DNA from: an uncultured Gammaproteobacteria bacterium
GTDB lineage: Bacteria; Patescibacteriota; Patescibacteriia; XYB2-FULL-38-15
Length of the DNA stretch: 64,000 bases
Direction: 5' to 3'
Assembly (NCBI GenBank): GCA_965231095.1
Contig: OZ246416.1
Coordinates: 249,228 to 313,227, forward strand
Numbering within the stretch: position 1 is the first letter of the stretch; every line of letters starts with the position of its first letter. The position numbers were made by a program, and so were the translations under genes. The notes below the pieces were generated by a model. That model made no database searches, was not told the origin of the DNA, and saw only the letters and a program-made list of their open reading frames with translations. This document shows positions 3,833 to 48,147 of this stretch, piece by piece.

Positions 3833-4174
3833 CTATTTAGAAAATATTTTTTCAATTTCTTCATCCTGGACTCCCATTCTTTTTTGATAATGGCTGTTAG
3901 TCTGCTTATAGTATTCATTCCAAATCTTTGCTTGCAGGGCTTCCCAGAGGCCTTTTTCGGGCATAAAGAATATCGGACGGTATTTTCCACCCGCCGAGGG
4001 ATAAGAAGGGGGAGTGAGCCATAATTTATCACCTTTTAAGTTTGGATATTGCGACTCCATCACTCTGAAACCCTTGACTATAAGATCTCCAAAATCTACG
4101 GAAATTATGGCTTTTAGTTTTTGCCCTTCAAGCACTTTTACTTTAATAGAGATTACGTCTAAATCTACGTTCAT
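3833..4174 (-). CDS. SpoVG family protein (113 aa)
   Basis: Collinear with SpoVG: LKAIISVDFGDLIVKGFRVMES resembles [24 protein letters not shown], and the C-terminal …IWNEYYK resembles …VLNEYHR. ATG at 4174. Confidence 0.55.
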   Translation of the reverse strand: MNVDLDVISIKVKVLEGQKLKAIISVDFGDLIVKGFRVMESQYPNLKGDKLWLTPPSYPSAGGKYRPIFFMPEKGLWEALQAKIWNEYYKQTNSHYQKRMGVQDEEIEKIFSK

Positions 4175-4198
4175 AAATTTGTTTAGTTAATTGTAATA

Positions 4199-4396
4199 TT
4201 ATGTTTTTAAGTCGCCGGTCTCTTTCCGGCGTTCTTGTAGTTTTTTGTATTCCGTCTCGGTCACTGGTTTATAAATCAACTCAACTAATCGGATGAGTTT
4301 TGCACCCTGCTCATACGCTTCCTCTCGGCTGATTTCTTTGCCGAAGTAGTTTTTATAAAGCGTTTGATAAGTTTTAATTTGCTCATCCGATAGCAT
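4199..4396 (-). CDS. Hypothetical small protein (65 aa)
   Basis: ATG ORF inside the island with coding-like composition; no motif recognised. Confidence 0.4.
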   Translation of the reverse strand: MLSDEQIKTYQTLYKNYFGKEISREEAYEQGAKLIRLVELIYKPVTETEYKKLQERRKETGDLKT

Positions 4397-4399
4397 AGT

Positions 4400-4696
4400 T
4401 TACTCCGAGTAAATTCGGTTTTTTAACATTTTGATATTATCAAAGAACGTCCTCGCCTTAACTTCTAGGCGGTCTGCCCAGTAATTATCAACGACCTTTT
4501 CAATGCCGATTTCTCGGCGAAAGATAAACTGGACTTTTTTGGGATTGGATTTGTCTAATGAGACAAGCTCAAAACCCGCCGTTGTCAATGAGGCGGCGGC
4601 TCCCAAATCAAAGGTATATAGGTGTTGTGAGTAGTCATCCGCGGGAGCGAATTTATTATCACTCCCCGGTTGACCACCTCTGAGTTTTTTGGTCAT
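4400..4696 (-). CDS. DUF5659-like protein (98 aa)
   Basis: TFDLGAAASLTTAGFELVSL…KKVQFIFRRE…VDNYW…KARTFFDNIKMLKNRIY resembles the DUF5659 pattern seen in CPR mobile elements. This is from memory and was not searched. Confidence 0.4.
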   Translation of the reverse strand: MTKKLRGGQPGSDNKFAPADDYSQHLYTFDLGAAASLTTAGFELVSLDKSNPKKVQFIFRREIGIEKVVDNYWADRLEVKARTFFDNIKMLKNRIYSE

Positions 4697-4801
4697 ATAA
4701 TTTTAGTTAGGGTTTTGGCAAATTAAAAAAGCCAAAGTTTTTTATGCTTTGACTTTACCAAAGTGTCAGGTGAGTCAATTACGGCTCAATTGCCTCAAAT
4801 A

Positions 4802-5482
4802 TCAATAATTCCGTTTTATGGTTTTTTCTTGCCAAGTAAATAAATCGTCATTGGTATTTGCTATTTCTTTTATTCGTTTATTAAGGGCGTCCACAGCGTC
4901 ATAAACTATTCGCCAATTCTCTCGGCTGTTTTGAGGTTTGCCATAGTATGCTTCATAATATCCAGTCATTTTTTGATAAATAGATGACCAATCGATTGGT
5001 TCACTTACTCCGTGCTCATACATAGCGCGGCAGAGGTAATGTTCGTTTTTGTATGGTGGGATTTGGCATTTTTGACTGCCAATTTCCAAAATTGCTTTTT
5101 CGTCGTTATATTTTACTCCCAAAGTTTTTAATTCAACCGGTTCGGGGGCTTGTTTGGTAATTTTATTTCTTCTTTCTTGAACGGTGTCTGTAAAAATATA
5201 ATGAAACTCATAAAGTTGATCAAACGCCGGCTGAATTATATCTATGTAAACGTCAGCTCTTAATAGGTCAATGCTATTGGGATCTGTTAGTTTGATAACC
5301 CCGTCTTTGGCTAATTTCCTCAATATACCAATTTCGTCATCGGAAGAGAGCGAATTGTCCCAAATATTGGAAGCGACAAAATAAGGGATATGATTTTCTA
5401 TATCAGCGTATAGTGATCTTTCTTTAATCTTTTTTAAGACGTGCCAAATACTCTCATTGAATTTTTCCTCCGGAAGTGTCAT
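4802..5482 (-). CDS. Hypothetical protein (226 aa), divergent from the RT gene
   Basis: ATG ORF with protein-like composition (W/Y-rich) and no recognisable motif. Confidence 0.5.
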   Translation of the reverse strand: MTLPEEKFNESIWHVLKKIKERSLYADIENHIPYFVASNIWDNSLSSDDEIGILRKLAKDGVIKLTDPNSIDLLRADVYIDIIQPAFDQLYEFHYIFTDTVQERRNKITKQAPEPVELKTLGVKYNDEKAILEIGSQKCQIPPYKNEHYLCRAMYEHGVSEPIDWSSIYQKMTGYYEAYYGKPQNSRENWRIVYDAVDALNKRIKEIANTNDDLFTWQEKTIKRNY

Positions 5483-5595
5483 AGTAATTTATATTATAAT
5501 ATTGCGAAATAACGCATTTCCGATGTAAGATAATATTATCAAACGTTAGGTGTTAAATCAATAACTAGGGGGTCCCTGGTTTGGAGAAAACATTT

Positions 5596-6921
5596 ATGGC
5601 ATTTTATGGAAAAATTATAAAACAAGTCGGGGGAAAATTCTGGCGGCATATTCATAAGGAGACACTTATTCCATATAAGGGCAATATGCCTAGCCGGGAG
5701 AAATTTTTGAAAGATCTTTCAGAGAAGATAGAAAAAATGCAGTATATCCCATCGCCACCTCGTGCTTATATCGTTTCGCATAAACAGAATCTGGTTGTTA
5801 GGTTTATACCTACAATGCAGAGGAGCGATTACTGCATTTATTTTTTTTGTGTTAAATCTCTTGAAAAAGAGATTGCAAAAAATCGTGTGCGGGGCACATA
5901 TGGCGGTTGGAAATTGGGAGGGAAAATTCGAAGAGCAGAGAATGGCGACGATGCACCGTCTACACCAGACGCCAGCTATAACAGATTCGAATGGATGCGC
6001 GCCTGGACAGATTATCAAAAGAGAGCATATGGATTTTATCTAAATGATAAGTTTAAGTATTTTATCGTCTTTGATATTGCAAATTTTTATGACTCGGTAA
6101 GACTTGGAAGGCTTGAAATATTGTTGCGCGAAGCAGCGCAAAAAAATAAAACTTCAGTCGTTAATCTTTTAATATATTTTTTATCGAATTGGGGTAAAAG
6201 GGATTTAAATTACGAAAGGCAAAGCACCGGGTTACCGCAAGACGAGGTCGGAGACTGTTCGAGGATCTTGGCGAATTTTTATTTGCAAGATTATGATAAA
6301 AAAATCTATAAGATTGTTTCGAGAAAAAAGGGTGGTTATCTGAGATATGCGGATGACCAAATTATAGCCGCGCCCAACGAAAAGACGGCAAAAAAAATTA
6401 TGTTTCTCGCTTCGCAAGAACTCGCCAAAATCGGTCTAAATCTAAACGCAAGTAAAGCTAAATTTTTTGAGAATCGAGATGAATTTAGTTATTTTTGGTC
6501 ATTCGATATTTTCAAATTACTCGGAAATAAAAATAACAAAAAAACGATTGAAAGCGCGTATAGTCTTTTTAAAGCAAGGAAGGCTAAGGATATACAATTT
6601 AAATCCGATGCAGTTCTCAAGAGACTTCTAAGTTGCAATCTTCGTTGCATCTCCCGAAATGTTCGCGAAGAGATCCTCGAGATGGTAAATAGAAAAGAAT
6701 TTTTGATTAATGTTAAAGACTATTATCTCAAAAGAATATACGAATTTATGCCCAGAAATAAAAAAAGTATTTTTTTGAAGTATCTAAATAATTTATCAGA
6801 CGAAATCCTTTTTAATGAGTTTCATCTAAGAGTAATGAAATTTTTCCGTGAAAAAAGAATCGACGGGATTTATTCGGATAAGCTACACTCAAATCTATTG
6901 AAACTGAATGATCTCGTGTAA
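5596..6921 (+). CDS. Reverse transcriptase of the retron/Abi/UG (defence-associated) type with an alpha-helical C-terminal extension. The ORF track start at 5581 is TTG; ATG at 5596 is preferred.
   Basis: RT motifs: motif 1/2 (IPSPPRAYIVSHKQNLVVRFIPTMQRSDYCIYF), motif A (FKYFIVFDIANFYDSV), motif B (GLPQDEVGDCSRILANFYL) and motif C (LRYADDQIIAAP), followed by about 200 aa of helical C-terminus. There is no maturase X or endonuclease domain. Confidence 0.85.
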   Translation: MAFYGKIIKQVGGKFWRHIHKETLIPYKGNMPSREKFLKDLSEKIEKMQYIPSPPRAYIVSHKQNLVVRFIPTMQRSDYCIYFFCVKSLEKEIAKNRVRGTYGGWKLGGKIRRAENGDDAPSTPDASYNRFEWMRAWTDYQKRAYGFYLNDKFKYFIVFDIANFYDSVRLGRLEILLREAAQKNKTSVVNLLIYFLSNWGKRDLNYERQSTGLPQDEVGDCSRILANFYLQDYDKKIYKIVSRKKGGYLRYADDQIIAAPNEKTAKKIMFLASQELAKIGLNLNASKAKFFENRDEFSYFWSFDIFKLLGNKNNKKTIESAYSLFKARKAKDIQFKSDAVLKRLLSCNLRCISRNVREEILEMVNRKEFLINVKDYYLKRIYEFMPRNKKSIFLKYLNNLSDEILFNEFHLRVMKFFREKRIDGIYSDKLHSNLLKLNDLV

Positions 6922-6981
6922 ACGTATCTCGCTGATTAAATAACTTTCCAAAATTAATTAAAAACGCTATTATATAAATAC

Positions 6982-7153
6982 ATCTGCCTAAACCTCGCTC
7001 CCTCCGCGAGGCATGGCAACTAAATCCTACGCGAATAAAGATGGTCTCCTGACCAGCACTTATTCGCGTAGGTCCACGTCCGAAAGGGCGTGGGGCGATT
7101 CCGAAAGGGGTCGTCGCTGTGTTGGGAGACCTTTTTTGTTTCCCTAGGCAGAT
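6982..7153 (+). ncRNA. Structured non-coding RNA immediately 3' of the RT (retron msr/msd-like or DRT-like ncRNA candidate)
   Basis: A 9-bp terminal inverted repeat (atctgccta at 6982-6990 and taggcagat at 7145-7153) closes the element. Inside are hairpin cctcgc/gcgagg, a perfect 13-bp stem cctacgcgaataa/ttattcgcgtagg (7026-7038/7060-7072) with a 21-nt loop, and two GAAA-tetraloop hairpins (7074-7093, 7095-7117). It ends with gggagacc + TTTTTT. The GNRA loops read GAAA only on the + strand. Confidence 0.5.
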
Positions 7154-7174
7154 AACAATTAAAACACACAAAAT

Positions 7175-7867
7175 ATGAAAAAAAATCTTCCAAATTGGCT
7201 TCTTTGGATCGCTGTATTCCCGGGAGCATTAATTTTTGGCTTGCTTATATTGTTTCCCCTGCATTGGATACTTTATATGGCTTTTTCTTACGACGGGACT
7301 TTTTTATTTTTTGAGTTACCCCCAGAAACAAATTTAATTGTCGAGAACGCAATTTATCCTGCTGTTTTTGCTATTGCCTTCATCTTTGCCGGTTATAAAA
7401 TTGCGCCAAAATATAAATTTAAAACAGCGATTGTCCTTTTTGGAATTTACTCTATCGCTTGGCTGACCATGATCGCTATAGTATTTTTTCAACCCGACAT
7501 TTACGGCGAGAATTTGTCTTTTCCATGGAGAGCGGCGCTGTCGTTGGTAGGCGCAATTATAGGCTTATATGTAACAAAACGTTACGGAATAAAGAAAATA
7601 GAAGAGAACCCAGCAGAGGACAAAGAATTGGACGAGATGGTGGAGGACTTCAACAGAGAAGCCGAAGCAGAGGGAAAATTAGCCCCACCGCAGGACGAGG
7701 AAACCACCCAAGTAATATTTCAACCAGGAAAATCGAAAGACCGTGGATTGGACGAAGTGATCGCGGACTTCAACAAGGATATGAAAAAATTGGGCGTAAA
7801 GGTAGTGCCGCCGAAAGACGACGGGGAGATACAAGTAGTATTTCGACAAAATTTCAAAAACAAATAA
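7175..7867 (+). CDS. Multi-pass membrane protein (about 4 TM) with an acidic C-terminal tandem repeat; candidate effector of the RT module
   Basis: Hydrophobic N-terminal half. The C-terminus contains two approximately 35-aa repeats (LDEMVEDFNREAEAEGKLAPPQDEETTQVIFQ / LDEVIADFNKDMKKLGVKVVPPKDDGEIQVVFRQ). It starts 22 nt after the ncRNA. Confidence 0.6.
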   Translation: MKKNLPNWLLWIAVFPGALIFGLLILFPLHWILYMAFSYDGTFLFFELPPETNLIVENAIYPAVFAIAFIFAGYKIAPKYKFKTAIVLFGIYSIAWLTMIAIVFFQPDIYGENLSFPWRAALSLVGAIIGLYVTKRYGIKKIEENPAEDKELDEMVEDFNREAEAEGKLAPPQDEETTQVIFQPGKSKDRGLDEVIADFNKDMKKLGVKVVPPKDDGEIQVVFRQNFKNK

Positions 7868-7923
7868 GCCAACCTCAAAATAATAAGTTAATAATATTTA
7901 TAATTTTAACTATAACCTAAACT

Positions 7924-8262
7924 ATGCCTAAAATCATCATCACGTTACTCCTCCCAATGTTACTTTTGGGTGCGGGTTGCGGAGCTGCGACATCTGGAGG
8001 CGGGGAAATTAAAATCACAAATACCGCCGAGAAGCCCGCTCCCGCGCAAAATCTTTATAACCTCGACACCGCCGATTCCGAGAATGTAGATGACTGCGTA
8101 ATCAAGGGTAACATCTCGTCGTCTGGAGAAAAAATATATCACTTGCCAGGATGCGGATCATATAGCCGAACCGTGATTGACGAAAGTGCCGGCGAGGAAT
8201 GGTTTTGTTCAGAAGATGATGCTGAGGCGGCAGGTTGGAGAAAGGCAAAAAATTGTCCTTAA
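7924..8262 (+). CDS. Lipoprotein with a C-terminal 4-Cys domain (112 aa)
   Basis: Lipobox LLLGAGC; C-terminus [43 protein letters not shown]. Confidence 0.5.
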
Positions 8263-8305
8263 TCTGGCGATCTAAGAAAATTTATTTTTAAAAACTAATT
8301 AATTT

Positions 8306-8599
8306 ATGAGTGAAATTACACAACAAAATCAAGGTCATCCAAACGCGAGTGGCTCTATATTTTTGTCAGTTGTAGCGGTAGTATTAATGTTTTTTGGTAT
8401 ACCAGCCATACTTTCGTTGATACTGGTAGCAATATCATCTCGACAAATTTTCAATGCGAAAAAAGCGGGGGAGAGTAAGAAATTTATTATCATCAGTTAT
8501 ATATTTTTGGCAGTCTCCTTGATTCTAGTTTTGATTTTGTCTTTTATAGAAGTTGTTCCTTTTGTAATCCACAGCCTGAAAGAAGCAGAAGCAATATAG
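8306..8599 (+). CDS. Small membrane protein (97 aa, 2-3 TM)
   Basis: Hydrophobic segments flanking a K-rich loop. Confidence 0.45.
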   Translation: MSEITQQNQGHPNASGSIFLSVVAVVLMFFGIPAILSLILVAISSRQIFNAKKAGESKKFIIISYIFLAVSLILVLILSFIEVVPFVIHSLKEAEAI

Positions 8600-8706
8600 G
8601 GGTAAATTTTATCCTCATTGACTATGAGCCCGGCGATAATACCGGGAAGTGTTTTGTTTTGGGAAATAGAGTATAATTAAAATGTTTTTAACTAACCCCA
8701 TAAAAT

Positions 8707-9687
8707 ATGCCTTCTGCGAAACTAGCTAAAGTAAATATAAAAATACCTGCATCATACGAACCATCTTTTGGCATAAGTAGGTGGAGTAAAAATGATTACG
8801 CGAAACCATTAATATTTAAAATCGATAATGCTGAAGCACGGATATTTTTAGAATATCCACCGACGGGGTTCTCGGTATTTCCTAAATTAAAAATATTCCC
8901 ATTTCCGAATCCATTTATAGTTTTACTGATTCGTAATCCAAGTGCTGAATTTATACAAGGATTGAAGGCGAAAAGTGGAGAAAATACTGTTAAAACGGCA
9001 GAACATATCTACAAAATATACGTAGAAGTAGTAAGTAAATTAGAAATTTTGCTTCGAACTGTAGGGGGAGTTAAAAATTTATATGAACTCAGAACTCCGC
9101 CAATAGAAGCGTTATTCAAAAAAAATATTTTAGATTATCCAGTTACCTTTCAAATAGATTCAGAAGATAAAAAACCCTTTAGTCCGAAATTTTCGACAAG
9201 GTCAAGGAGAAGGAACCCTCTTTTTAAAGCCGATCAGCTTGTAACGCCAGATAAGTGGGGGAAGATGCAAAGAGCCATTGATAATCGATATTACGCAAGC
9301 CAAGAAATTATTGAAATATTAAGAATACGAGCGAAGCTATTAGGAGAAAATAAAAAATTAGCAACTCTCGAATCTGCAATTCTTTTCGAAAGTCTGCTGA
9401 GAGACTATTCGCGTAAGACTCTTGAAGAGAGGGGAGTCAGCAATACAAAGGTGAAGGAAGTTAGTGATGAATTAAATTTCAATAATATCCTCAATCTGCT
9501 ACTTCCCCTCAGTTTAAAAAAGGCAGAGGTCCTTAAACTTCGCGAAAGTATAAATACGATTGATGCATTGAGAAAAATTAGAAACAAAGTCATTCATGGA
9601 GAATTGACAGAAGATAAGATTGATAAAAAAATAATTGAAAAGGGGATTGAGGGGGGACTGAAATTGATTAGATTTTTATTTAAATGA
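8707..9687 (+). CDS. Hypothetical protein with a C-terminal HEPN-like Rx4H motif (326 aa); possible Abi-type RNase
   Basis: The C-terminal helical region reads …IDALRKIRNKVIHGELTED… (R-N-x3-H-G, as in HEPN/Abi_2-type domains). The rest is unrecognised. Confidence 0.4.
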   Translation: MPSAKLAKVNIKIPASYEPSFGISRWSKNDYAKPLIFKIDNAEARIFLEYPPTGFSVFPKLKIFPFPNPFIVLLIRNPSAEFIQGLKAKSGENTVKTAEHIYKIYVEVVSKLEILLRTVGGVKNLYELRTPPIEALFKKNILDYPVTFQIDSEDKKPFSPKFSTRSRRRNPLFKADQLVTPDKWGKMQRAIDNRYYASQEIIEILRIRAKLLGENKKLATLESAILFESLLRDYSRKTLEERGVSNTKVKEVSDELNFNNILNLLLPLSLKKAEVLKLRESINTIDALRKIRNKVIHGELTEDKIDKKIIEKGIEGGLKLIRFLFK

Positions 9688-9907
9688 TAAGACTAGCCCC
9701 AGAATATAGGGGAACTTAAAATTAGTTAATACAAATGTTTAGATAGTTCCGGTATATAAACATACTCATTTTGTCGCTGAATTATAGTTCTAACGCTGTC
9801 CACAATTCGGAGCCAAAATAAAAATTCCGACTTTTTGTCGGGGTTTTTATTTTGTGTTTTGTGGTGACAGATTTGAACCCACCCACCGTTAAGCCATCGG
9901 GCGTAGC

Positions 9908-9930
9908 TTCGAATCCCACCTCCCGAGCCA
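9908..9930 (+). repeat. attR core: second copy of the 23-bp tRNA-Asn 3'-end repeat
   Basis: Exact copy of 1615-1637; followed by an AT-rich hairpin that is probably the original tRNA terminator. Confidence 0.65.
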
Positions 9931-9967
9931 AAATAAAATATCCAACGAAAGTTGGGTATTTTATTTT
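9931..9967 (+). terminator. AT-rich 17-bp hairpin with a GAAA loop right after attR (probably the ancestral tRNA-Asn terminator)
   Basis: aaaataaaatatccaac-gaaa-gttgggtattttatttt. Confidence 0.45.
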
Positions 9968-29266: not shown

Positions 29267-30115
29267 ATGGACCTCTCAATTATTATCGTAAATTGGAAAG
29301 TTAAAGATCTGCTGGAAAAATGCCTACGGTCTATTTTTGAACAAACTAAAAATATAAGTTTTGAGGTTTTTGTGGTTGATAATAATTCGGGCGACGGAAG
29401 CGCGGAGATGGTGCGGGAAAAATTTCCCCAAGTTGATCTGACGGCCAGCGCGGAAAACTTGGGTTTTGCAAAAGGAAATAATCTGGCGATAAAAAAATTT
29501 CGCGGCAGATATGTTTTACTTTTAAATCCCGACACGGAAATTTTAGATAATGCCTTGGGTAAAATGGTTAAATTTATGGACGCCCAAGAGGAGTGCGGCA
29601 TTGCCGGTTGCAAACTTTTAAACGCCGACTTGTCTCTTCAACCATCAGTTCGCGCTTTTCCGGATTTTGCCTCGCAGATTTTTATTTTGTTAAAAATTCA
29701 CCATTTGTTTCCGCACTCAAAAACCATGTACAAATATCTAGTTCAAGATTTTGATTATGGAAAAACACAAGAAACGGATCAGGTCATGGGTGCGTTTATG
29801 ATGATCCGACGAGAGGTGATAAATAGAATTGGAGTGCTTGATGAAAATTTTTGGATTTGGTTTGAAGAAGTTGATTTTTGCAAACGGGCAAAAGAGGCTG
29901 GTTTCAAAATTTTCTACACGCCGGAAGCAAAAATCATCCATCACTTTGGCCAAAGTTTTAAACAAGCCATGGGCGTAAAAAAACAAAAAGATTTTAACCG
30001 GAGTTTGTCGTATTATTTCAAAAAACATGGAACAAAAGGGGAGTGGATCGCAATACAGATTTTACGGCCATTAAGTTTGGCCTTGGCTTGGCTCGCGCAA
30101 AATTTTAAAAAATAA
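29267..30115 (+). CDS. Family 2 glycosyltransferase
   Basis: LSIIIVNW…VVDNNSGDGS…LLNPD motifs. Confidence 0.8.
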   Translation: MDLSIIIVNWKVKDLLEKCLRSIFEQTKNISFEVFVVDNNSGDGSAEMVREKFPQVDLTASAENLGFAKGNNLAIKKFRGRYVLLLNPDTEILDNALGKMVKFMDAQEECGIAGCKLLNADLSLQPSVRAFPDFASQIFILLKIHHLFPHSKTMYKYLVQDFDYGKTQETDQVMGAFMMIRREVINRIGVLDENFWIWFEEVDFCKRAKEAGFKIFYTPEAKIIHHFGQSFKQAMGVKKQKDFNRSLSYYFKKHGTKGEWIAIQILRPLSLALAWLAQNFKK

Positions 30116-30181
30116 AAAAAACCGACTTAATCAGCTTGCGCTTTTCAGTCGGCGTAGATTCGTTCCTCCGTCGATCGCGAT

Positions 30182-30661
30182 CTAGACCGCGATGGGCTGG
30201 TTCACGTAGAAGGCGGCGAGCGTGGCGATGATCTTCATCGCCTCAGCCTCGCCGATCTGGCGGAAGTCGCCGGCCGAAACCCGGCAGTCGGCCGCCAGAC
30301 TGCGGATGGTCTCGGTTCCGTCTCCCCCGATGCGGGTGGAGCCCTCCACTCCCCAGATATTGGCATCAGGGAAGTAGCTGACCAGGATCAGGCGTTCGCT
30401 TTCCTCTCCTCCGGTCAGAGCGACTTCGATCGAGGTGGGCTCCCACCTCTCTTGCTCTTCCTTGGGGGCGCTGGGGCTCACGCGCCCGAAGACGAGATCC
30501 CAGCCGAGGAGGAAGCCGCTGCGCGCCGACGTGTCGAAACCGGCGATGATGTCGTCGTAGTGGACGGCCTCATGCCCGTGGACGCGAAGCCTGGCAAAGA
30601 TCTCCTCGACTTTCTGGCACAACACGATCGTCTTCTTCAATCTTTCGAGCCGGGAATTCAT
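30182..30661 (-). CDS. Hypothetical protein, paralog A of a tandem 3-member family (GC-rich)
   Basis: Shares MxSRLxxLxxxIxLCxxVxxIF…GFxxxxxSGxLLGW…SIEVxL…AxxIIxTLxxFY with the neighbouring ORFs. It has its own TTGACA-17-TAGATT promoter and SD gaaggaggg. Confidence 0.5.
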   Translation of the reverse strand: MNSRLERLKKTIVLCQKVEEIFARLRVHGHEAVHYDDIIAGFDTSARSGFLLGWDLVFGRVSPSAPKEEQERWEPTSIEVALTGGEESERLILVSYFPDANIWGVEGSTRIGGDGTETIRSLAADCRVSAGDFRQIGEAEAMKIIATLAAFYVNQPIAV

Positions 30662-30805
30662 CCCTTACACCCTCCTTCTCGCCCAAACCCAATTGTTTAG
30701 GCTACACTATAATCTAACAACAAAATTATAAATTGTCAAGACTTCCTTATTCTTTTAAAATAAAAAAGCCGACCGAAGAGCAAGTGTTCCTGGTCGGCAG
30801 ACGGA

Positions 30806-31285
30806 CTATCCTCCCGCTGTGATCGCGGTCTTGACCGCGGAAAGGTTGGTATAAAAGTCGACGAGTGTTCGGATAATCGCAAAGGCTTGACCTCTACTGA
30901 TCACCCGAAAATCTCTGTTGGGCGCGAGATCCCAGGTGTCGGCCAGTTTTTGCAACGAAGCGTCTTTCGTCGCGAAACAATATTTGGCCTTCCAGATCAA
31001 GCCACCTTCACTGGGTAAAAGAATCTGGTCGCAGCGTACCTGGATGATTGGGTTGTGTCTGTCTCCCCAACTGATGAACACCTCGATGGAAATGTGTGTC
31101 TCTCTGATGTCGAGACACCAACCAAGAAGGTAGTCGCATCTTGAAGGGGCGGTGAATCCGGCGCAAAAAGGGTTGTACGGAGCAGGGATTGCTTCGCTTC
31201 CTGTGACGCTGCTTGATTCGAAGATCCCTTCAACTTCATTGCACAGTTTGATCACCCGCGTCAGTACCTGAAGTCTTGAATGCAC
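30806..31285 (-). CDS. Hypothetical protein, paralog B
   Basis: Homologous to A and C; SD aaagggagg; terminator hairpin gccgacc…ggtcggc+T6 downstream. Confidence 0.5.
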   Translation of the reverse strand: MHSRLQVLTRVIKLCNEVEGIFESSSVTGSEAIPAPYNPFCAGFTAPSRCDYLLGWCLDIRETHISIEVFISWGDRHNPIIQVRCDQILLPSEGGLIWKAKYCFATKDASLQKLADTWDLAPNRDFRVISRGQAFAIIRTLVDFYTNLSAVKTAITAGG

Positions 31286-31308
31286 TTTTGTCCTCCCTTT
31301 AGGTGCAA

Positions 31309-31764
31309 CTAGCCCACGGATAGCTTAGCGTAGAATTCGGCGAGCGACTCGATGAGTTCGAGCGCCTTGTGTTCGTCCACCAAGGTCGCACCGCGTATAA
31401 GCGACCACCTGAAGACGAGATCATGGACTGCTTGGAATCTGTCGATCTCGAAAGTTAGCACCACGCCCCACCCACAGCCGACAGTGTAAAGGAATTTGAT
31501 CAATTCTTCTGAATTGTCACCCCCGTCGTTCCAGAGACTCACCTCGAGCTGGCAAGGAAGAAGCTCGCCTACGCGACTCGCGTGGTTGTCGAGGTAATTT
31601 AACCGCCAGATGAGAACCAACCCACTCTTGGGTTCGGCGACGAAATCCACAATGGTGGCCGGGTGGTAGATCTGCCGGCCGACAACCCTTGCCTCTCGGA
31701 AGATGTTCATGATGCGATCGCAGAGCGCTAACATACCATGCAAGTCACCAAGCCTATTATCCAT
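31309..31764 (-). CDS. Hypothetical protein, paralog C
   Basis: Homologous to A and B; promoter TTGACA-16-TAAATT; SD aaaggaggg. Confidence 0.5.
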   Translation of the reverse strand: MDNRLGDLHGMLALCDRIMNIFREARVVGRQIYHPATIVDFVAEPKSGLVLIWRLNYLDNHASRVGELLPCQLEVSLWNDGGDNSEELIKFLYTVGCGWGVVLTFEIDRFQAVHDLVFRWSLIRGATLVDEHKALELIESLAEFYAKLSVG

Positions 31765-31842
31765 TTTGTCCCTCCTTTTTTTCGCCGAGTTTTACTCGGA
31801 CTTCATATCAATTTATCACCTGAATATTAATTGTCAACCGCC

Positions 31843-33273
31843 ATGGACCTTTTCGGAAAATATTTTAAAACCTCGCTGCTTTTTATTTCTCTCACGCTGA
31901 TTTTGTCGTTCTGCGCTTACTTTTTTCCGCTTTTTAATAAAGCAGCGTTTTTTGTAATTTTGGCGCTGACGCTTGTTTTAACTTTAGAAAAATTAGAGTA
32001 TGGACTTTATATCTTACTGGCAGAATTATTTATTGGTTCAAAAGGATATCTTTTTTTTCTAGACACTGGGGGAGTTTCGGTTTCCTTGCGCATAGGTTTA
32101 TTTTTAATTGTGATGGCAGTTTGGATTTATAACAGATTAAAGATTAAAGATTTAAGATTTAAATTGGATAAATGGTATTGGATTTTATTTGCCTTTATCG
32201 CCTGGGGTTTTGTTTGGGGATTAATTCGCGGAAACTCTTTCCAAAATTTATTTTTTGATTTTAACGGCTGGATTTATTTTGCCCTGGTTTTTCCGCTCGC
32301 TGACGTTATCAAATCGCGCGAGCAAATTGAAAATGTTTTACAAATTTTTACCGCCTCAATTACAATCATTATCGTAAAAACTTTTATTTTTCTTTATATT
32401 TTCTCCCACGGATTTGAAGTTGTCGTCTTGCCGATTTATCGCTGGCTCCGGCAATTTCTAATCGGAGAGGTTACGCTAATGCCGAGCGGTTTTTACCGGA
32501 TATTTTTTCAATCGCAGATTTATTTATTGATTGGATTTTTTATTTTTTCCGCATTTTTAATTTGGGAAAATAAAAAAGATAAAAGATGTTGGTTCTTGGC
32601 TGTTGGGTCGCTGACCTCGGTTTTGATTAGTTTTTCTCGAAGTTTTTGGGTGGGACTCGCGGCTGGAATTATCGCGTTTTTGGTAATTTTAATTATTCAA
32701 AAATTTTCTTTCGGAAAAATCGTGAGAATCGGCTTAGCCGGCCTCGCCATTTTAATAATTTCTTTGTCCGCGACTTTTGTCACGGCGCAATTTCCGTTCC
32801 CCGAACCGAGAAAAATTTCTTTTGCCTCAATGTTTAGTGACCGTCTGACTGATTTAGATGAAGCAGCGGTCCGAAGTCGCTGGGATTTACTCCCGCCGCT
32901 CGGCCGGGAAATTGTAAAACATCCGATTGTCGGTTCTGGTTTTGGGACAACTGTCACTTATAAAAGCAGTGACCCGCGAGCTGTGCAATTTAATCCCGGC
33001 GGGATATTCACAACCTATGCCTTTGAATGGGGATTTTTGGATATTATGTTGAAAATCGGTCTGGCTGGGTTGGTTGTTTATATACTTCTAATCGTTAAAA
33101 TTTGGCGTTTTGGGTGGTTTTTAGGGCGATCTAGGGACTTTATCTTCCCCGGACTTTTGCTTGGGTTAGCCGCTCTTTTGGCCACAAATTTTTTCAGCCC
33201 ATACTTAAACCATCCGTTGGGGATTGGTTATATAATGCTTTGCGATATAATCTTTCAAAAATTAAAAAGTTGA
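31843..33273 (+). CDS. O-antigen ligase/polymerase (Wzy_C) family membrane protein
   Basis: About 10-12 TM protein with a periplasmic loop (SRSFWVGLAAGIIAFL…). The track start at 31831 is TTG; ATG at 31843. Confidence 0.65.
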   Translation: MDLFGKYFKTSLLFISLTLILSFCAYFFPLFNKAAFFVILALTLVLTLEKLEYGLYILLAELFIGSKGYLFFLDTGGVSVSLRIGLFLIVMAVWIYNRLKIKDLRFKLDKWYWILFAFIAWGFVWGLIRGNSFQNLFFDFNGWIYFALVFPLADVIKSREQIENVLQIFTASITIIIVKTFIFLYIFSHGFEVVVLPIYRWLRQFLIGEVTLMPSGFYRIFFQSQIYLLIGFFIFSAFLIWENKKDKRCWFLAVGSLTSVLISFSRSFWVGLAAGIIAFLVILIIQKFSFGKIVRIGLAGLAILIISLSATFVTAQFPFPEPRKISFASMFSDRLTDLDEAAVRSRWDLLPPLGREIVKHPIVGSGFGTTVTYKSSDPRAVQFNPGGIFTTYAFEWGFLDIMLKIGLAGLVVYILLIVKIWRFGWFLGRSRDFIFPGLLLGLAALLATNFFSPYLNHPLGIGYIMLCDIIFQKLKS

Positions 33274-33789: not shown

Positions 33790-34107
33790 ATGGTAACGAT
33801 TGAGGTTGGGAATACGGGAGTAGAAGAACGGAAGCGGCGATTCAAGGATATGCTGACAAAAGAGATCGTGAAGATCGGGGGCATCGGAGACAACGTGGAT
33901 GTGACGATCCGGTTCTGTGGCGCGACAGACCGGAGGCGAGGGCCGCTCAATCTCCACATTTTGGACGGCAGCGGTCTTCCGGGCCATCTTCACGGCAAGA
34001 TCGCCGAGGGTCTTTGCTCGGTAGCCAGGAGGTTCTACGAGGAAAACGGCCACGGTGTCCGACCGGTGGAAACTACGATCGGTTCCGTTTTGCGCAAAAT
34101 CGACTAG
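33790..34107 (+). CDS. Hypothetical protein (105 aa), GC-rich
   Basis: Own promoter TTGACT-16-TAAAAT, SD gggaggcgg, and terminator gcggcag…ctgccgc+T-run. Confidence 0.45.
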   Translation: MVTIEVGNTGVEERKRRFKDMLTKEIVKIGGIGDNVDVTIRFCGATDRRRGPLNLHILDGSGLPGHLHGKIAEGLCSVARRFYEENGHGVRPVETTIGSVLRKID

Positions 34108-40716: not shown

Positions 40717-40849
40717 ATTTTCTATAAATAGTATAGCATATTTTCCCCTTGACAACAAATAAGTTATCTGTTATTATATAGCCATCTTGAAGTGGGGAAG
40801 TCCTTCACGGCGAAGGGCGACTTCTCCCTACGGAAGAAGGAGGAACAAG

Positions 40850-40933
40850 ATGACGAGAACCAGGTACGGGCCGTTCGCGCTGTCGTACAGCGCGGAAACA
40901 TTGGTCGCTTCCTCGTCGACTTCGGCGGCCTGA
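40850..40933 (+). CDS. Candidate 27-aa peptide (MTRTRYGPFALSYSAETLVASSSTSAA) at the start of a GC-rich island
   Basis: Promoter TTGACA-17-TATTAT at 40750-40778, a structured leader, and SD aaggagg 7 nt upstream of the ATG. Speculative. Confidence 0.25.
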   Translation: MTRTRYGPFALSYSAETLVASSSTSAA

Positions 40934-40947
40934 CCGGCGCCCCACCG

Positions 40948-41077
40948 GCGTCCTCCGTTCTCGGTGATCCATTCACACTAGGCATCGTCGTCCTGACAAT
41001 GCTACACCGAGGACAAAGTTCCTAACCCGTCTGCCGACCCAAGGTTCATCCAAGAATCTTTCTGGGTCGGCTTTTTT
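40948..41077 (+). repeat. Direct repeat copy 1 (about 130 bp, includes a terminator hairpin)
   Basis: About 98% identical to 41800-41929 apart from one divergent 14-bp patch; ends gccgaccca…tgggtcggc+T7. Confidence 0.75.
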
Positions 41078-41184
41078 TATTTCAAATAAAATTTGACAAA
41101 AAATATAGTAAATGTAAAATGCGGAACATATAGTTTGAAAGCGGAACATGGGGTTCTGCTACGTGAAAGGGAAGGGAAAAGAAG

Positions 41185-41775
41185 ATGACGAAGATTCTGT
41201 TTGCGTTCTTGTTCGGGTTGCTGATCGTCGGCGCGGCAAATGCGTCGACCACCACCATCTATGGAACCGCCTGGGATGACGACATCACCGTGATGCGGTA
41301 CCACTACAGCGGCTTCCTGGTTGAGGGGGCATGCGTCAACAATACGTGGCACTTGGGCGGAGACGCCACGTCGAGCGATCTCATCTACGTGTACGGAGGG
41401 ACCGGTGATGACCGCATCGACGTGATCACCACGGATGGTGATTTTTTCGTCTGTGGGGGTGAGGCGAAGCGCGTCTACAGCCTCGACTACAGCTACGCGT
41501 GCCCAGGAGTTTTGCTCTCCGGAGATGATGACGACGATGTTCTCGTCGGCGGAGAATGTGCCGAGGTGCTCTCGGGTGGCGACGACAACGACACCTTATT
41601 CGGAGGGGCAGGTTGCGACTACCTCTATGGGGGTTGTGGCTCGGACTGCCTGTCGGACAGCAACGTCTGCACAGTCGACTGCGGCGAGTGCGGAACCGAC
41701 AACGACTCAGAGGCAACGCCCCTGTCTCCCTCGAGCTGCGAGAACTCCGCGATGTTCTGCTTCATCTCGGGGTGA
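41185..41775 (+). CDS. Secreted RTX-like calcium-binding repeat protein (196 aa)
   Basis: Signal peptide MTKILFAFLFGLLIVGAANAS; GGxGxD-type repeats (YGGTGDDRIDV, LSGGDDNDTLFGGAGCDYLYGGCGSD); Asp/Cys-rich. Promoter TTGACA-16-TAAAAT upstream. Confidence 0.55.
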   Translation: MTKILFAFLFGLLIVGAANASTTTIYGTAWDDDITVMRYHYSGFLVEGACVNNTWHLGGDATSSDLIYVYGGTGDDRIDVITTDGDFFVCGGEAKRVYSLDYSYACPGVLLSGDDDDDVLVGGECAEVLSGGDDNDTLFGGAGCDYLYGGCGSDCLSDSNVCTVDCGECGTDNDSEATPLSPSSCENSAMFCFISG

Positions 41776-41799: not shown

Positions 41800-41929
41800 C
41801 GTCCTCCACTCTCGGTGATCTATCTATATATAGCATCGTCGTCCTGACAATGCCACACCGAGGACAAAGTTCCTAACCCGTCTGCCGACCCAAGGTTCAT
41901 CCAAGAATCTTTCTGGGTCGGCTTTTTTT
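41800..41929 (+). repeat. Direct repeat copy 2
   Basis: See copy 1; together they bracket the RTX-like gene. Confidence 0.75.
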
Positions 41930-42027
41930 ATCTCTTGACGGAAAATTAAATATAATTTAACCTAAGCAAAAGGTTAGAAACCTTGACGCGAGGCAGTTCG
42001 CCCGCGTGGAAAAGGGAGGGAAGTAAC

Positions 42028-42279
42028 GTGGAAACTACGCTGTTCGCGATCTGGATCGTCGGGGTCGTCTTGGTTCTGGCGGCTGGGGTATGTTGGGAGT
42101 GGTGGCTCGAAGTTGAGGAGAGGAATCACGGGGAGCCGTGGTTCGGCACCGTCGTCTTCGTGGCTCTCATCTGGCCCGCACTTCTGTGCTTCTTTGTCTT
42201 GCCCATGGGGATCATGCGGGTTTGGGGCAAGGTAGAGGAGGTGATGGCGAGAAGGAGATTCGCGAGAGGAGAGTGGTAA
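42028..42279 (+). CDS. Small 2-TM membrane protein (83 aa, GTG start)
   Basis: SD aagggaggg 8 nt upstream of the GTG; W-rich TM helices. Confidence 0.4.
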   Translation: METTLFAIWIVGVVLVLAAGVCWEWWLEVEERNHGEPWFGTVVFVALIWPALLCFFVLPMGIMRVWGKVEEVMARRRFARGEW

Positions 42280-42476
42280 TGATAGACATCCTTGGTCCGT
42301 TGATCGGCGTTGCGTTCGCCGCGGCGTTTGCTCTGGATCTTTGGTGCGAGCCGCTCCTGTTCGACACCTTCGGCACCTCTGGTGCGACCGGGTTCTGGGA
42401 GAACGGTGCCCAGACCCGTTGCACATTCGTCGAGACCGCTCCTGTTCGGATCGCTGGAGAGTGCTCGCTCGCTTGA
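42279..42476 (+). CDS. Small protein (65 aa) coupled to the previous ORF (TAATG overlap)
   Basis: MIDILGPLIGVAFAAAFALDLW… hydrophobic N-terminus. Confidence 0.35.
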   Translation: MIDILGPLIGVAFAAAFALDLWCEPLLFDTFGTSGATGFWENGAQTRCTFVETAPVRIAGECSLA

Positions 42477-42581
42477 TCGGCCCGGACAACGTAACCGTCG
42501 CGTTGGACACCCGGGCAAAATGAGGAATGGCGGCTTACCTGCGGCACGACGCCCCATCCGAGGGAAGGAAGGAACCCCGGC

Positions 42582-42857
42582 ATGATAAGTGCTGGAATCG
42601 TGCCTGCCCTCGTGCAGATCTGCGTCGGTGGTAACTGGGACGTCTGCTCTTACACTTCGCCGTTGTTTACGTCCGTCCATCACGACGGTCGTACGAACGA
42701 CCTCGACGGACGAGACGGTGTCTTCGAATGCTCGGAGGACGCTCCGCGCGTTCGCGACGAGGTGACGAGCGCCCGGCCAAGCGGAAGCCCGCTCCTGGCC
42801 GTTCGTACCAGTACACCGTGCAGTTCATGCGCGAGACAGGCACGCGCGCCGCCCTGA
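42582..42857 (+). CDS. Hypothetical Cys-containing protein (91 aa)
   Basis: SD ggaagga; followed by terminator cccggct…agccggg+T6 (about 42864-42912). Confidence 0.35.
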   Translation: MISAGIVPALVQICVGGNWDVCSYTSPLFTSVHHDGRTNDLDGRDGVFECSEDAPRVRDEVTSARPSGSPLLAVRTSTPCSSCARQARAPP

Positions 42858-43018
42858 CGTAACCCCGGCTTGTGAAGAGACCGAAATATCTTCCGAGCCG
42901 GGTCTTTTTTATGTCGCAAAAATTCAAAAATCCTAACCAATATGCTGGATAGGATTTTATGTTGGAGTCCCGATTTTAGTCGGGCAAAATTGCCCACTCT
43001 AAAGAGTGGATTCCGTTT

Positions 43019-47489: not shown

Positions 47490-47957
47490 CTACGCCGCCT
47501 CACCCCGTGGAACTACGCCGCAGTCCGGACACTGGATGATCCGCTCGAACGACTTTGTGTACGTCCCGAAGGCGTGCTTGTTTCCGCAGCGGGGACAGGC
47601 GAGATCGTACTTGATCCAGTGAACGTGCTTCTCCCAGTCGCAAATCAAACATCGCAGAACAAAATACGGCGGCTTCATCTCCCTGGTCTGCATGCCGTTG
47701 TGTCCGCACCTTTGGCAAAAAAAGCCCGTGTCGCAGTGAACGCAGTGACCCTTGCCATCTGCCGGAATGGCGCAAACATGAGGATGGTGTTGCGGCGAAA
47801 TTTGCAGCCGCGCCCTTGTCAGGCGACTTTCGGCAGCCGCGCCTATCCCGACACGAACCACGCAAGCGTGACACTGCGAGCAAAGCCCTCCTTGCTTCCG
47901 CGGATGCCCGCAATTCGGGCAAGGATCTCCGTCGTATTTACCCCAAGAGTCTTCCAT
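47490..47957 (-). CDS. Multi-zinc-ribbon protein (155 aa from ATG 47957; the track's GTG start is at 48023)
   Basis: Seven CxxC pairs (CPNCG, CSQCH, CVHCD, CQRCG, CLICD, CPRCG, CPDCG); SD ggagag. Confidence 0.45.
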   Translation of the reverse strand: MEDSWGKYDGDPCPNCGHPRKQGGLCSQCHACVVRVGIGAAAESRLTRARLQISPQHHPHVCAIPADGKGHCVHCDTGFFCQRCGHNGMQTREMKPPYFVLRCLICDWEKHVHWIKYDLACPRCGNKHAFGTYTKSFERIIQCPDCGVVPRGEAA

Positions 47958-47967
47958 TTTTTCTCTC

Positions 47968-48147
47968 CTATCCGGAAACGTTCGGTCCGTAGATGGTCCG
48001 ATACGCCTCTTCAAAACGCGCACCTTCGCGTACTTTTACGGCGCGGAGTGCCGCAGTCCAAAACACAACAGACGCGCGCTCCTCAAACGACAAATTTCTC
48101 CACCACCTGAGAACTTCGCGTTGTTTTTGAGTTTCCTTCCTAGCCAT
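47968..48147 (-). CDS. Small protein (59 aa; MARKETQKQREVLRWWRNLSFEERASVVFW…), first gene of the GC-rich operon
   Basis: Not in the ORF track (below 60 aa). Strong SD aaaaggagga before the ATG; promoter TTGACT-17-TAGATT upstream (about 48185-48215, minus sense). Confidence 0.3.
   Translation of the reverse strand: MARKETQKQREVLRWWRNLSFEERASVVFWTAALRAVKVREGARFEEAYRTIYGPNVSG

What the first reader, a model, noticed from the sequence alone, without database searches (positions are those of the whole stretch)
30182..31764. Three tandem, diverged paralogs (about 155 aa each) of an unrecognised family in a GC-rich block
A, B and C share an N-terminal MxSRLxxLxxxIxLCxxVxxIF and a C-terminal AxxIIxTLxxFY at about 25% identity overall. 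They are arranged C-B (coupled), terminator, promoter, A. Diversified tandem arrays like this are typical of immunity-protein or inhibitor families (polymorphic toxin immunity, anti-defence). No cognate toxin is obvious in the window.
Basis: seen in the sequence. Interest (0 to 1): 0.6.

Follow-up and report, generated by a model that had tools for sequence, protein, structure and literature searches.

The report
Variable GC-rich orphan gene cassette
Three real, anciently diverged copies of a previously undescribed small protein sit in a GC-rich, self-contained gene cassette that was inserted into a conserved cell-envelope operon of one narrow group of ultra-small (Patescibacteria) bacteria and varies from zero to three copies between close relatives; what the protein does is still unknown.

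Summary
A (30182-30661), B (30806-31285) and C (31309-31764), all on the minus strand, are true paralogs (BLASTP E 8e-16, 5e-12, 1e-6; 22-31% identity). The layout is promoter-C-B-terminator-promoter-A. They match no Pfam, NCBIfam, PHROG or PADLOC family. AlphaFold models are confident (pLDDT 87-89), but Foldseek finds no significant neighbour in PDB or BFVD.

The family has about 30 members among billions of proteins. All lie in one Falkowbacteria-related Patescibacteria clade, always in one slot between a GT2 glycosyltransferase gene and a Wzy_C gene. Two sister genomes have an empty slot. Others carry A only, B only, C-like only, other types, two copies, or C-B as here.

Flanking proteins are 82-94% identical between genomes, while slot proteins are 30-68% identical. 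dN/dS is 0.22-0.40 against 0.02-0.14 in the flanks. GC3 is 0.58-0.84 against about 0.38, in every genome examined.

So this is a lineage-specific, autonomous, hypervariable accessory cassette. An immunity- or inhibitor-like binding role fits the pattern but is unproven. No toxin gene appears among the called neighbours of any locus, there is no phage link, and no codon window has dN/dS above 1.

The parts
31309..31764 (-). Paralog C (151 aa), first gene of the C-B transcription unit. SD AAGGAGGG at 31770-31777.
   Evidence: ORF and sequence. C-type clade with P0005, P0028, P0020, P0021 and P0024. GC3 0.68.
30806..31285 (-). Paralog B (159 aa, GTG start), 23 nt downstream of C, with its own SD GGGAGGA at 31291-31297.
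   Evidence: B-type clade with P0014, P0019 and P0026. AlphaFold2 pLDDT 88.7, pTM 0.84. GC3 0.58.
30182..30661 (-). Paralog A (159 aa), a separate transcription unit. It is the subtype found in the largest number of related genomes. SD AAGGAGG at 30671-30677.
   Evidence: Orthologs are 53-82% identical. AlphaFold2 pLDDT 87.2, pTM 0.85. GC3 0.84, the highest among ORFs of 90 aa or more in the window.
31810..31837 (-). Promoter-like site P1 for C-B (TTGACA-16-TAAATT, TG-extended). It overlaps the 5' end of the divergent Wzy_C ORF.
   Evidence: Its core TTGACAATTAATA is a 92% copy of the P2 core (D4).
30711..30739 (-). Promoter-like site P2 for A (TTGACA-17-TAGATT, TG-extended).
   Evidence: CTTGACAATTT is invariant, and the -10 region and 5'UTR are highly conserved, across 11 A-type loci.
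30762..30804 (-). Intrinsic terminator after B (CCGTCTGCCGACC ... GGTCGGC + U6).
   Evidence: Fold -20.9 kcal/mol, z -2.65. The same stem sequence occurs at 41027-41077 and 41878-41928.
30113..30153 (-). Probable terminator after A (7-bp stem GCCGACU/AGUCGGU, large loop, U8). The 3'UTR is strongly conserved among A-type loci.
   Evidence: Fold (the stem is present in the MFE and centroid structures, but z is only -0.73). Conservation.
30742..31822 (-). About 1.08-kb segment (C, B, terminator and a duplicated promoter core) that is extra relative to A-only relatives. It is bounded by the duplicated 13-17 nt promoter core.
   Evidence: blastn HSP breakpoints against L001, L017, L019 and L020. 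Repeat D4.
29267..30115 (+). Conserved flank: GT2 glycosyltransferase (GT2b), convergent with A.
   Evidence: Pfam annotations. 86-90% aa identity across relatives.
31831..33273 (+). Conserved flank: Wzy_C (O-antigen ligase/polymerase-like) membrane protein, divergent from C. The likely true start is the ATG at 31843.
   Evidence: Pfam PF04932, E 4.5e-9. 75-84% aa identity across relatives. In L025 it overlaps GT2b by 4 nt with no gene between them.

Best explanation
The block is a lineage-specific, self-contained accessory gene cassette. It has its own near-consensus promoters, strong ribosome-binding sites and terminators. It was inserted in reverse orientation into an ancestral GT2a-GT2b-Wzy_C envelope-glycan operon, in one Falkowbacteria-related clade of Patescibacteria.

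It encodes a new family of soluble proteins of about 155 aa. An N-terminal and a C-terminal helix pack on a 6-7-stranded antiparallel sheet. There is no signal peptide, no membrane segment and no conserved catalytic residues.

The family split long ago into at least three subtypes (A, B, C). Related genomes carry different subsets of them (0-3 copies). This window carries all three because a C-B module was added upstream of the common A gene.

The most likely mode of action is inferred, not shown. I propose a stoichiometric binding protein of the immunity or inhibitor type that neutralises or recognises a variable partner. Under this idea the fold core is conserved, surfaces diverge, and lineages accumulate or swap subtypes.

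Shown: the paralogy, the coding status, the cassette architecture, the insertion and presence/absence polymorphism, the faster protein evolution, and the persistent GC3 excess.

Inferred: the binding or immunity role and the identity of any partner.
For: - Paralogy.
- No known family.
- A tiny family confined to one clade: 18 hits among 5.8e9 cluster representatives, 11 among 1.84e9 representatives, and 2 loci in 185,579 species genomes.
- The same slot holds the gene in every locus that has context.
- The slot is empty in L025, where GT2b and Wzy_C overlap by 4 nt, and in the Falkowbacteria-like L026.
- Slot contents differ between loci. A only: L001, L002, L007, L015, L017-L020, L024. B only: L023. 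C-like only: L009 (L022 also carries a C-like gene next to Wzy_C, but its contig ends about 60 nt after that gene). Other types only: L010, L013. Two copies: L004. C-B: window and L021.
- Flanking proteins are 82-94% identical while slot proteins are 30-68% identical.
- dN is 3-5 times higher than in the flanks, with dN/dS 0.22-0.40 against 0.02-0.14. The slot-gene tree is discordant with the flank tree.
- Family-wide invariant residues are two Trp plus hydrophobic core positions.
- In A orthologs the helices are conserved, and strands 4-6 and the 59-74 loop are variable.
- Autonomous expression signals.
Against: - No toxin, secretion or mobile-element gene appears among the called neighbours of the cassette in any locus examined.
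- There is no similarity to known immunity, defence or phage families.
- There is no viral occurrence.
- No 20-codon window has dN/dS above 1; the maximum is 0.69. Diversifying selection is therefore not demonstrated, and relaxed constraint could explain the rate.
- The N- and C-terminal helices of the A subtype are almost invariant, including at synonymous sites. That points to a conserved partner or a nucleotide-level constraint rather than an arms race over the whole surface.
- The GC3 excess is not explained by this hypothesis.
Confidence: 0.35

Rival explanations
1. The gene is a dispensable lineage-specific orphan ('moron-like' accretion) under relaxed constraint, with no specific important function, or one unrelated to conflict. 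Copy-number variation would reflect duplication and loss at a permissive intergenic site.
For: - Absent from two sister genomes without disruption of the flanks.
- dN/dS is several-fold higher than in neighbours but never above 1.
- Several other GC-rich, unannotated, self-contained small genes are scattered in the same window and the same relatives. The phenomenon is therefore generic rather than specific to this family.
Against: - dN/dS of 0.22-0.40 still means purifying selection.
- All three subtypes persist as intact ORFs across genomes whose flanks have dS of about 1.
- The promoter, 5'UTR and 3'UTR are strongly conserved.
- The predicted fold is confident.
Confidence: 0.25
2. The protein is an accessory factor or regulator of the adjacent envelope-glycan module. 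It could act as a cytoplasmic partner of Wzy_C or GT2b. Alternatively its strong convergent transcription could modulate read-through from GT2a-GT2b into Wzy_C.
For: - Position between GT2b and Wzy_C is absolutely conserved in every locus with context.
- The P1 promoter overlaps the Wzy_C 5' end.
- The cassette separates Wzy_C from the operon to which it is translationally coupled in L025.
- The helical face of the A subtype is nearly invariant, which would suit a conserved partner.
Against: - L025 and L026 keep intact GT2a-GT2b-Wzy_C without the gene.
- The flanks are conserved (75-90%) while slot proteins fall to 30% identity and different subtypes substitute for each other. That is hard to reconcile with co-evolution with a conserved enzyme.
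- There is no known glycan-pathway domain.
Confidence: 0.15
3. The protein is an exported effector or surface-interaction factor that these episymbiotic bacteria use on their host or on competitors, leaving the cell by a non-classical route.
For: - Lineage-restricted, fast-evolving and variable in copy number.
- The extreme N-terminus MNSRLERLK is invariant in A orthologs, and M-x-S/N-R-L is shared family-wide. This could be a targeting signal.
Against: - No signal peptide or membrane segment is evident from direct reading of the sequences; no predictor was run.
- No secretion-system genes are nearby.
- The N-terminal conservation extends to synonymous sites, so it may be a nucleotide-level constraint.
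Confidence: 0.1
4. The region is not protein-coding. On this view it is a GC-rich structured RNA or an ORF artefact of GC-rich DNA.
For: - GC-rich DNA yields long spurious ORFs in several frames.
- The A mRNA folds somewhat better than shuffled controls (z -2.8).
Against: - Protein-level paralogy at 22-31% identity with unalignable DNA.
- dN/dS is below 1 with an excess of third-position changes.
- Strong SD plus start codon at each ORF.
- No Rfam family reaches its gathering score in the block.
- Confident AlphaFold2 models of the same topology for A and B.
Confidence: 0.02

Closest known systems
Orphan or arrayed immunity genes of polymorphic toxin systems (e.g. CdiI, SUKH/Imm families)
   Same: The proteins are small, apparently soluble and cytoplasmic, with no catalytic motif. 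Paralogs are tandem and diverged. Repertoire differs between strains. The sequence evolves fast over a conserved core.
   Different: There is no sequence or significant structural match to any known immunity family. No toxin gene or toxin C-terminal fragment is listed next to the cassette in any locus. The position in a housekeeping operon is fixed rather than in a toxin locus. Each unit has its own promoter.
Phage 'morons' (autonomous promoter-gene-terminator insertions with deviant base composition)
   Same: It is a self-contained transcription unit with a near-consensus promoter and an intrinsic terminator. It is inserted between two genes that are adjacent in relatives. Its base composition differs strongly from its surroundings.
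   Different: The host replicon is a bacterial chromosome backbone (ATP synthase / glycan operon), not a prophage. The family was not found in the viral collections searched. The GC excess persists across species divergence instead of ameliorating.
MAM33 / p32 (C1QBP) fold: one N-terminal helix, a seven-stranded antiparallel sheet, C-terminal helices
   Same: The order of secondary-structure elements is the same (helix, antiparallel meander sheet, two helices). p32/Mam33 chains recur among the top non-significant Foldseek hits for both the A and the B model.
   Different: Foldseek probability is at most 0.16, TM-score at most 0.31 and rmsd above 11 A. There is no Pfam MAM33 match. The proteins are not strongly acidic (pI 4.7-6.8). 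This is a resemblance of topology only.
Flexible genomic islets / replacement islands at conserved chromosomal slots (e.g. envelope-associated hypervariable islands of streamlined aquatic bacteria)
   Same: Flanks are conserved and contents vary. Alternative non-alignable 'alleles' occupy the same slot. The phylogeny is discordant with the flanks, and the slot lies next to glycosyltransferase and Wzy genes.
   Different: Here the glycan genes themselves are conserved. The variable element is one small cytoplasmic protein family, not glycan-synthesis genes.

Membership tests
Polymorphic-toxin immunity proteins | Encoded immediately downstream of, or adjacent to, a toxin gene or orphan toxin module | tested here: not met
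   In every locus with context the neighbours are Wzy_C on one side and GT2b on the other. No toxin-like gene is called within 10 kb. The rest of the 886-kb genome could not be inspected.
Polymorphic-toxin immunity proteins | Sequence or structural membership of a described immunity family (Imm/SUKH/CdiI etc.) | tested here: not met
   No Pfam, NCBIfam or PADLOC hit at E <= 1, or E <= 10 across 27 members. A CdiI chain (6cp9) appears only at Foldseek probability 0.08-0.15.
Polymorphic-toxin immunity proteins | Small, apparently cytoplasmic, rapidly diverging, in tandem arrays, repertoire varies between strains | tested here: met
   Members are 146-176 aa, and no signal peptide or TM segment is evident on reading the sequences. 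There are 0-3 copies with alternative subtypes. dN is 3-5 times that of the flanks.
Polymorphic-toxin immunity proteins | Binds and neutralises a cognate toxin | not testable with these tools
   Needs biochemistry or a multimer prediction against candidate partners.
Anti-defence proteins of phages and mobile elements | Encoded on a phage, plasmid or other mobile element | tested here: not met
   No relative in IMG/VR contigs or in 50,697 phage records. No PHROG match. The context is ATP synthase / glycan / fmt-def-priA backbone.
Phage-type moron | Autonomous promoter and terminator; composition unlike the flanks; inserted between genes that are adjacent in relatives | tested here: met
   Promoters, terminators, GC3 0.58-0.84 against 0.38, empty site in L025 and L026.
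Phage-type moron | Resides in a prophage or phage genome | tested here: not met
   The flanks are housekeeping genes conserved in synteny across the clade.
MAM33/p32 family | Significant sequence (PF02330) or structural similarity | tested here: not met
Integron gene cassette | Promoterless ORF followed by an attC recombination site, in an array next to an integrase | tested here: not met
   Each unit has its own promoter. The only inverted repeats next to the ORFs are terminator hairpins. No integrase gene is called within 10 kb in any locus.
Target of a diversity-generating retroelement | A variable repeat in the gene matched by a template repeat next to a reverse transcriptase | tested here: not met
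   No repeat of 35 nt or more links 30.1-31.8 kb to any other part of the window, including the reverse-transcriptase region at 5.6-7.1 kb.

The most novel reading that the evidence does not exclude
The cassette may be one instance of a genome-wide class of GC-rich, autonomous promoter-ORF-terminator units in this Patescibacteria clade. They may be captured, duplicated and exchanged at fixed slots by a shared mechanism. Two observations hint at this: duplications bounded by terminator/promoter junction sequences, and an identical terminator stem at three sites. Their extreme GC3 would be actively maintained, by GC-biased gene conversion at recombination-hot slots or by selection on the mRNA. 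Within that class, the A/B/C family would be a new-fold immunity or recognition module whose subtypes are accumulated against variable antagonists.
Probability: 0.12. Interest if true: 0.7.

Novelty: new member of a known kind. Interest (0 to 1): 0.42.

Why it matters
Patescibacteria genomes are tiny and full of unannotated genes, so the few loci that vary between near-identical backbones are good candidates for host, phage or competitor interactions.

This locus offers a cleanly delimited example. A new, confidently folding protein family is confined to one clade. An empty ancestral site is available for comparison. Alternative subtypes and copy numbers exist, and the compositional anomaly has survived species divergence.

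If the proteins prove to be immunity- or recognition-type binders, they would define a new family and point to an unknown antagonist in these organisms. If the GC3 excess reflects biased gene conversion or mRNA-level selection, the locus would be a natural test case for that debate in reduced genomes.

If neither holds, it is one more lineage-specific orphan. That is why the score is moderate.

Tried and rejected
- **Profile libraries.** Pfam, NCBIfam, PHROGs and PADLOC gave nothing for A, B or C. Scanning all 27 members against Pfam at E <= 10 gave no recurrent family.
- **PDB sequence search.** The profile search found only chance WD40 hits at E 0.3.
- **Phage origin.** No relatives in IMG/VR or INPHARED.
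- **Structured RNA.** No Rfam family reaches its gathering score in the block. The mRNA z-score is only -2.8.
- **DGR target or integron cassette.** No template/variable repeats and no attC-like repeats were found.
- **Extra copies in the window.** None.
- **Positive selection.** Sliding-window dN/dS over 11 A-type alleles never exceeds 0.69.
- **Highly acidic DNA mimic or p32-like protein.** pI is 4.7-6.8, so not markedly acidic.
- **Literature.** Searches for GC-rich islands or morons in Patescibacteria or Falkowbacteria found nothing relevant.
- **Alignment too divergent to back-translate.** A2 could not be used to search contig collections, so only the A-type alignment A3 was used.
Full report
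**1. The observation**

- A, 30182..30661, 159 aa
- B, 30806..31285, 159 aa, GTG start
- C, 31309..31764, 151 aa

Pairwise BLASTP shows real homology: A/B 31% identity at E 8e-16, A/C 30% at E 5e-12, B/C 22% at E 1e-6. The multiple alignment reproduces the quoted N- and C-terminal motifs. Neither tblastn nor a three-sequence HMM finds any further copy in the 64-kb window.

The sequence shows an AAGGAGG-type Shine-Dalgarno 6-9 nt before each start. C and B are separated by only 23 nt. B is followed by a GC stem plus U-run, and a 144-nt AT-rich spacer lies before A. The consensus scan finds two near-perfect sigma-70-type promoters with an extended -10. One lies at 31810-31837 before C and one at 30711-30739 before A. 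Folding supports the terminator after B (-20.9 kcal/mol, z -2.65). After A it gives a weaker stem plus U8.

The block is GC-rich. GC is 0.63, 0.51 and 0.54 for A, B and C, and GC3 is 0.84, 0.58 and 0.68. The backbone genes have GC3 of 0.27-0.47. A has the highest GC3 of any ORF of 90 aa or more in the window.

**2. They are genes, and the family is new**

For A-type orthologs, third-codon positions differ about twice as often as first or second positions, and dN/dS is 0.22-0.40. AlphaFold2 with the family alignment gives confident models of the same topology for A (pLDDT 87.2, pTM 0.85) and B (pLDDT 88.7, pTM 0.84). The topology is:
- a long N-terminal helix,
- a six-stranded antiparallel meander sheet,
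- a short helix,
- one more strand,
- a long C-terminal helix.

**3. Distribution**

A word-indexed search of 5.8 billion cluster representatives returns 18 proteins. A full HMMER pass over 1.84 billion representatives returns 11. A second iteration adds one more. Only two loci are found in 185,579 species-representative genomes. One of them is a 1.9-kb contig binned as a gammaproteobacterium, which is probably mis-binned. Seven loci come from JGI metagenomes.

All members are 146-176 aa single-domain proteins. The named records are 'Patescibacteria group bacterium'. The nearest named relative of the flanking GT2 gene (76% identity) is Candidatus Falkowbacteria.

A neighbour-joining tree resolves an A clade, a B clade and a C clade plus a few orphans. 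The three paralogs are therefore old subtypes and not a recent local triplication.

**4. Context: one fixed slot, variable contents**

Every member with flanking sequence sits between a Wzy_C membrane-protein gene (divergent) and a pair of GT2 glycosyltransferase genes (convergent), just downstream of the ATP synthase operon. The contents of the slot differ between loci:

| Slot contents | Loci |
|---|---|
| A only | L001, L002, L007, L015, L017-L020, L024 |
| B only, directly abutting both flanks | L023 |
| C-like only | L009; L022 also carries a C-like gene next to Wzy_C, but its contig ends about 60 nt after that gene |
| Very divergent member only | L010, L013 |
| C-like copy plus A | L004 |
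| C-B | window and L021 (89% nt identity to the window; that contig ends before A) |

I then searched from the flank instead of from the family. This recovered two sister genomes with an empty slot:
- In L025 (GT2b 83% identical), GT2b and Wzy_C overlap by 4 nt.
- In the Falkowbacteria-like L026 (76%), they are separated by a 170-nt spacer of 25% GC. No GC-rich island occurs anywhere in that 10.8-kb locus.

The cassette is thus a lineage-specific insertion, in reverse orientation, into what was a GT2a-GT2b-Wzy_C operon. Compared with A-only loci, the window has about 1.08 kb of extra DNA (30742-31822) carrying C, B and a terminator. The extra segment is bounded by a duplicated 13-17-nt promoter core, TTGACAATT[A/T]ATA.

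**5. Evolutionary behaviour**

- **Divergence.** Between the window and its relatives the flanking proteins are 82-94% identical (GT2b 86-90%, AtpD 93-94%). The slot protein is 65-68% identical where it is an A ortholog and about 30% where another type occupies the slot.
- **Rates.** In Nei-Gojobori estimates, dN of the A orthologs is 3-5 times that of the flanks. dN/dS is 0.22-0.40 against 0.02-0.14.
- **Discordance.** L001 and L002 share an 88%-identical slot protein although their flanking proteins are only 80-85% identical (AtpD 96%). L002 and L004 have the most similar flanks (87-90%) but only 65% identity in the slot protein. This suggests allele exchange or very uneven rates.
- **Selection.** A sliding window over 11 A alleles never reaches dN/dS above 1; the maximum is 0.69 at codons 81-100.
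- **Synonymous constraint.** dS is about 1.0-1.2 in mid-gene, as in the flanks, but only 0.3-0.5 in the first 30 or so and the last 20 or so codons.
- **Non-coding conservation.** The promoter -35, the 5'UTR and the 3'UTR/terminator loop are also near-invariant.
- **Divergent alleles.** Even L009 and L013 align at the DNA level to the 3' end of A.

The gene ends are thus conserved at the nucleotide level. They could be recombination anchors for swapping the middle, or they could be under RNA-level constraint. I cannot tell which.

Family-wide, only two Trp and a handful of hydrophobic core positions are invariant. Within A orthologs both terminal helices are almost invariant, while strands 4-6 and the 59-74 loop vary.

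**6. The GC anomaly**

The GC excess is a property of the family in every genome examined. GC3 is 0.77-0.84 for A orthologs and 0.54-0.78 for other types. The flanking genes have GC3 of 0.28-0.49. Both C-ending codons (52%) and G-ending codons (32%) are enriched in A. This looks like a general GC pressure rather than the mild preference seen in atpD (GC3 0.44).

The orthologs have diverged to a mid-gene dS of about 1 without ameliorating. The excess must therefore be maintained by something, not merely inherited from a donor, and no donor exists in the databases.

The window contains several other GC-rich, unannotated, self-contained small genes. A second fast-evolving GC-rich family sits on the other side of Wzy_C in the window and in L001, L002 and L004. 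I regard this as unexplained.

**7. What it most likely is**

The descriptive conclusion is well supported. This is an autonomous, lineage-specific, hypervariable accessory cassette encoding a new small protein family, apparently soluble and cytoplasmic.

For function, I commit with low confidence (0.35) to a non-enzymatic binding protein of the immunity or inhibitor type. The reasons are:
- only the fold core is conserved,
- there is no catalytic motif,
- subtypes substitute for and accumulate alongside each other,
- the gene is dispensable in sister genomes,
- the protein evolves several-fold faster than its neighbours.

The evidence against is substantial. No toxin gene is called next to the cassette in any locus, there is no link to known immunity, defence or phage families, positive selection is not demonstrated, and the helical face of the A subtype is invariant.

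The rivals are:
- a relaxed-constraint orphan (0.25),
- an accessory factor or regulator of the Wzy_C/GT2 module (0.15), weakened by the empty slots and by subtype replacement beside conserved flanks,
- an exported effector (0.10),
- a non-coding artefact (0.02).

**8. Comparison and verdict**

The block behaves like arrayed orphan immunity genes and is built like a phage moron. It fails the defining membership tests of both: no adjacent toxin and no family match for the first, and no prophage for the second. It is not an integron cassette and not a DGR target.

I file it as a new member of a known kind, namely a strain-variable accessory cassette of small fast-evolving proteins. Interest is moderate (0.42). 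The family is real and new, and the locus is unusually clean for follow-up, but there are very many uncharacterised lineage-specific families in Patescibacteria and no mechanism has been shown.

Noticed in passing
window 33790-34107 (+); L001 7958-8350, L002 7276-7638, L004 6082-6423: A second lineage-specific, GC-rich (GC3 0.68-0.76), fast-evolving small-protein family (105-130 aa, 25-32% identity between genomes) occupies a fixed slot on the other side of Wzy_C. It has no Pfam match and no relation to the A/B/C family.
   Followed up: partly
window 1563-9931: The 3' half of tRNA-Asn (1595-1638) is repeated at 9888-9931 (84%). The repeats bracket about 8.3 kb that encodes a large serine recombinase (1596-3329, -), a reverse transcriptase (5581-6921, +) immediately followed by a LOOT RNA (6985-7115), and a weak HEPN RiboL-PSP match (8707-9687). 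This is probably an integrated mobile or defence element.
   Followed up: partly
window 40949-41083 and 41800-41934: A 135-nt direct repeat (91% identical), ending in a terminator, brackets a GC-rich gene (41185-41775, GC3 0.77). The gene encodes a Cys-rich protein with an N-terminal signal-like segment and an RTX nonapeptide repeat. The arrangement looks like an insertion or duplication of another autonomous GC-rich unit.
   Followed up: partly
window 30762-30804 (-), 41027-41077 (+), 41878-41928 (+): The terminator stem CCGTCTGCCGACC...GGTCGGCTTTTTT occurs exactly three times, against 0.6 matches expected at up to 2 mismatches for the 5' arm pattern. Once is after paralog B and twice is in the 135-nt repeat. 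The loops differ. Either the GC-rich units share ancestry or this terminator is a mobile module.
   Followed up: partly
window 41920-41964 and 58569-58613: A 45-nt terminator-tail-plus-promoter junction (GGCTTTTTTTATCTCTTGAC...) is shared in inverted orientation. Each copy lies upstream of a different GC-rich unannotated gene (the 41983-42860 small-protein operon, and 58182-58529 on the minus strand).
   Followed up: no
window 41983-42860 (+); L001 394-774: A GC-rich operon of small hydrophobic proteins lies next to clpB. The product of window ORF 42138-42476 resembles, on visual comparison, the 126-aa gene next to clpB in L001, so at least this unit appears to be conserved in position. The coding frames are ambiguous because several long ORFs overlap.
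   Followed up: no
window 47490-48023 (-): A GC-rich 177-aa ORF has many CxxC pairs (multiple zinc-ribbon-like motifs) and no Pfam match. Long ORFs overlap it on the other strand.
   Followed up: no
window 30733-30761 (+): A promoter-like site (TTGTCA-17-TAAAAT) on the plus strand lies in the B-A spacer. It points antisense into B and C and towards Wzy_C, and its -35 overlaps that of the A promoter. Neither cassette terminator has a U-run on the plus strand, so operon read-through into Wzy_C is conceivable.
   Followed up: no
window 40770-41030: A GC-rich stretch lies upstream of the first 135-nt repeat copy. It has a strong hairpin (GGGGAAGTCC...GGGCGACTTCTCCC) and an SD followed by only a 26-codon ORF. 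It may be a leader or small RNA. No Rfam family reached its gathering score.
   Followed up: no
family-wide C-termini: Many members end in ...FY-x-x-(Q/L)-P-A-A, -QPVG or -QPVTA. This is a conserved short tail after the last helix, and its role is unknown.
   Followed up: no
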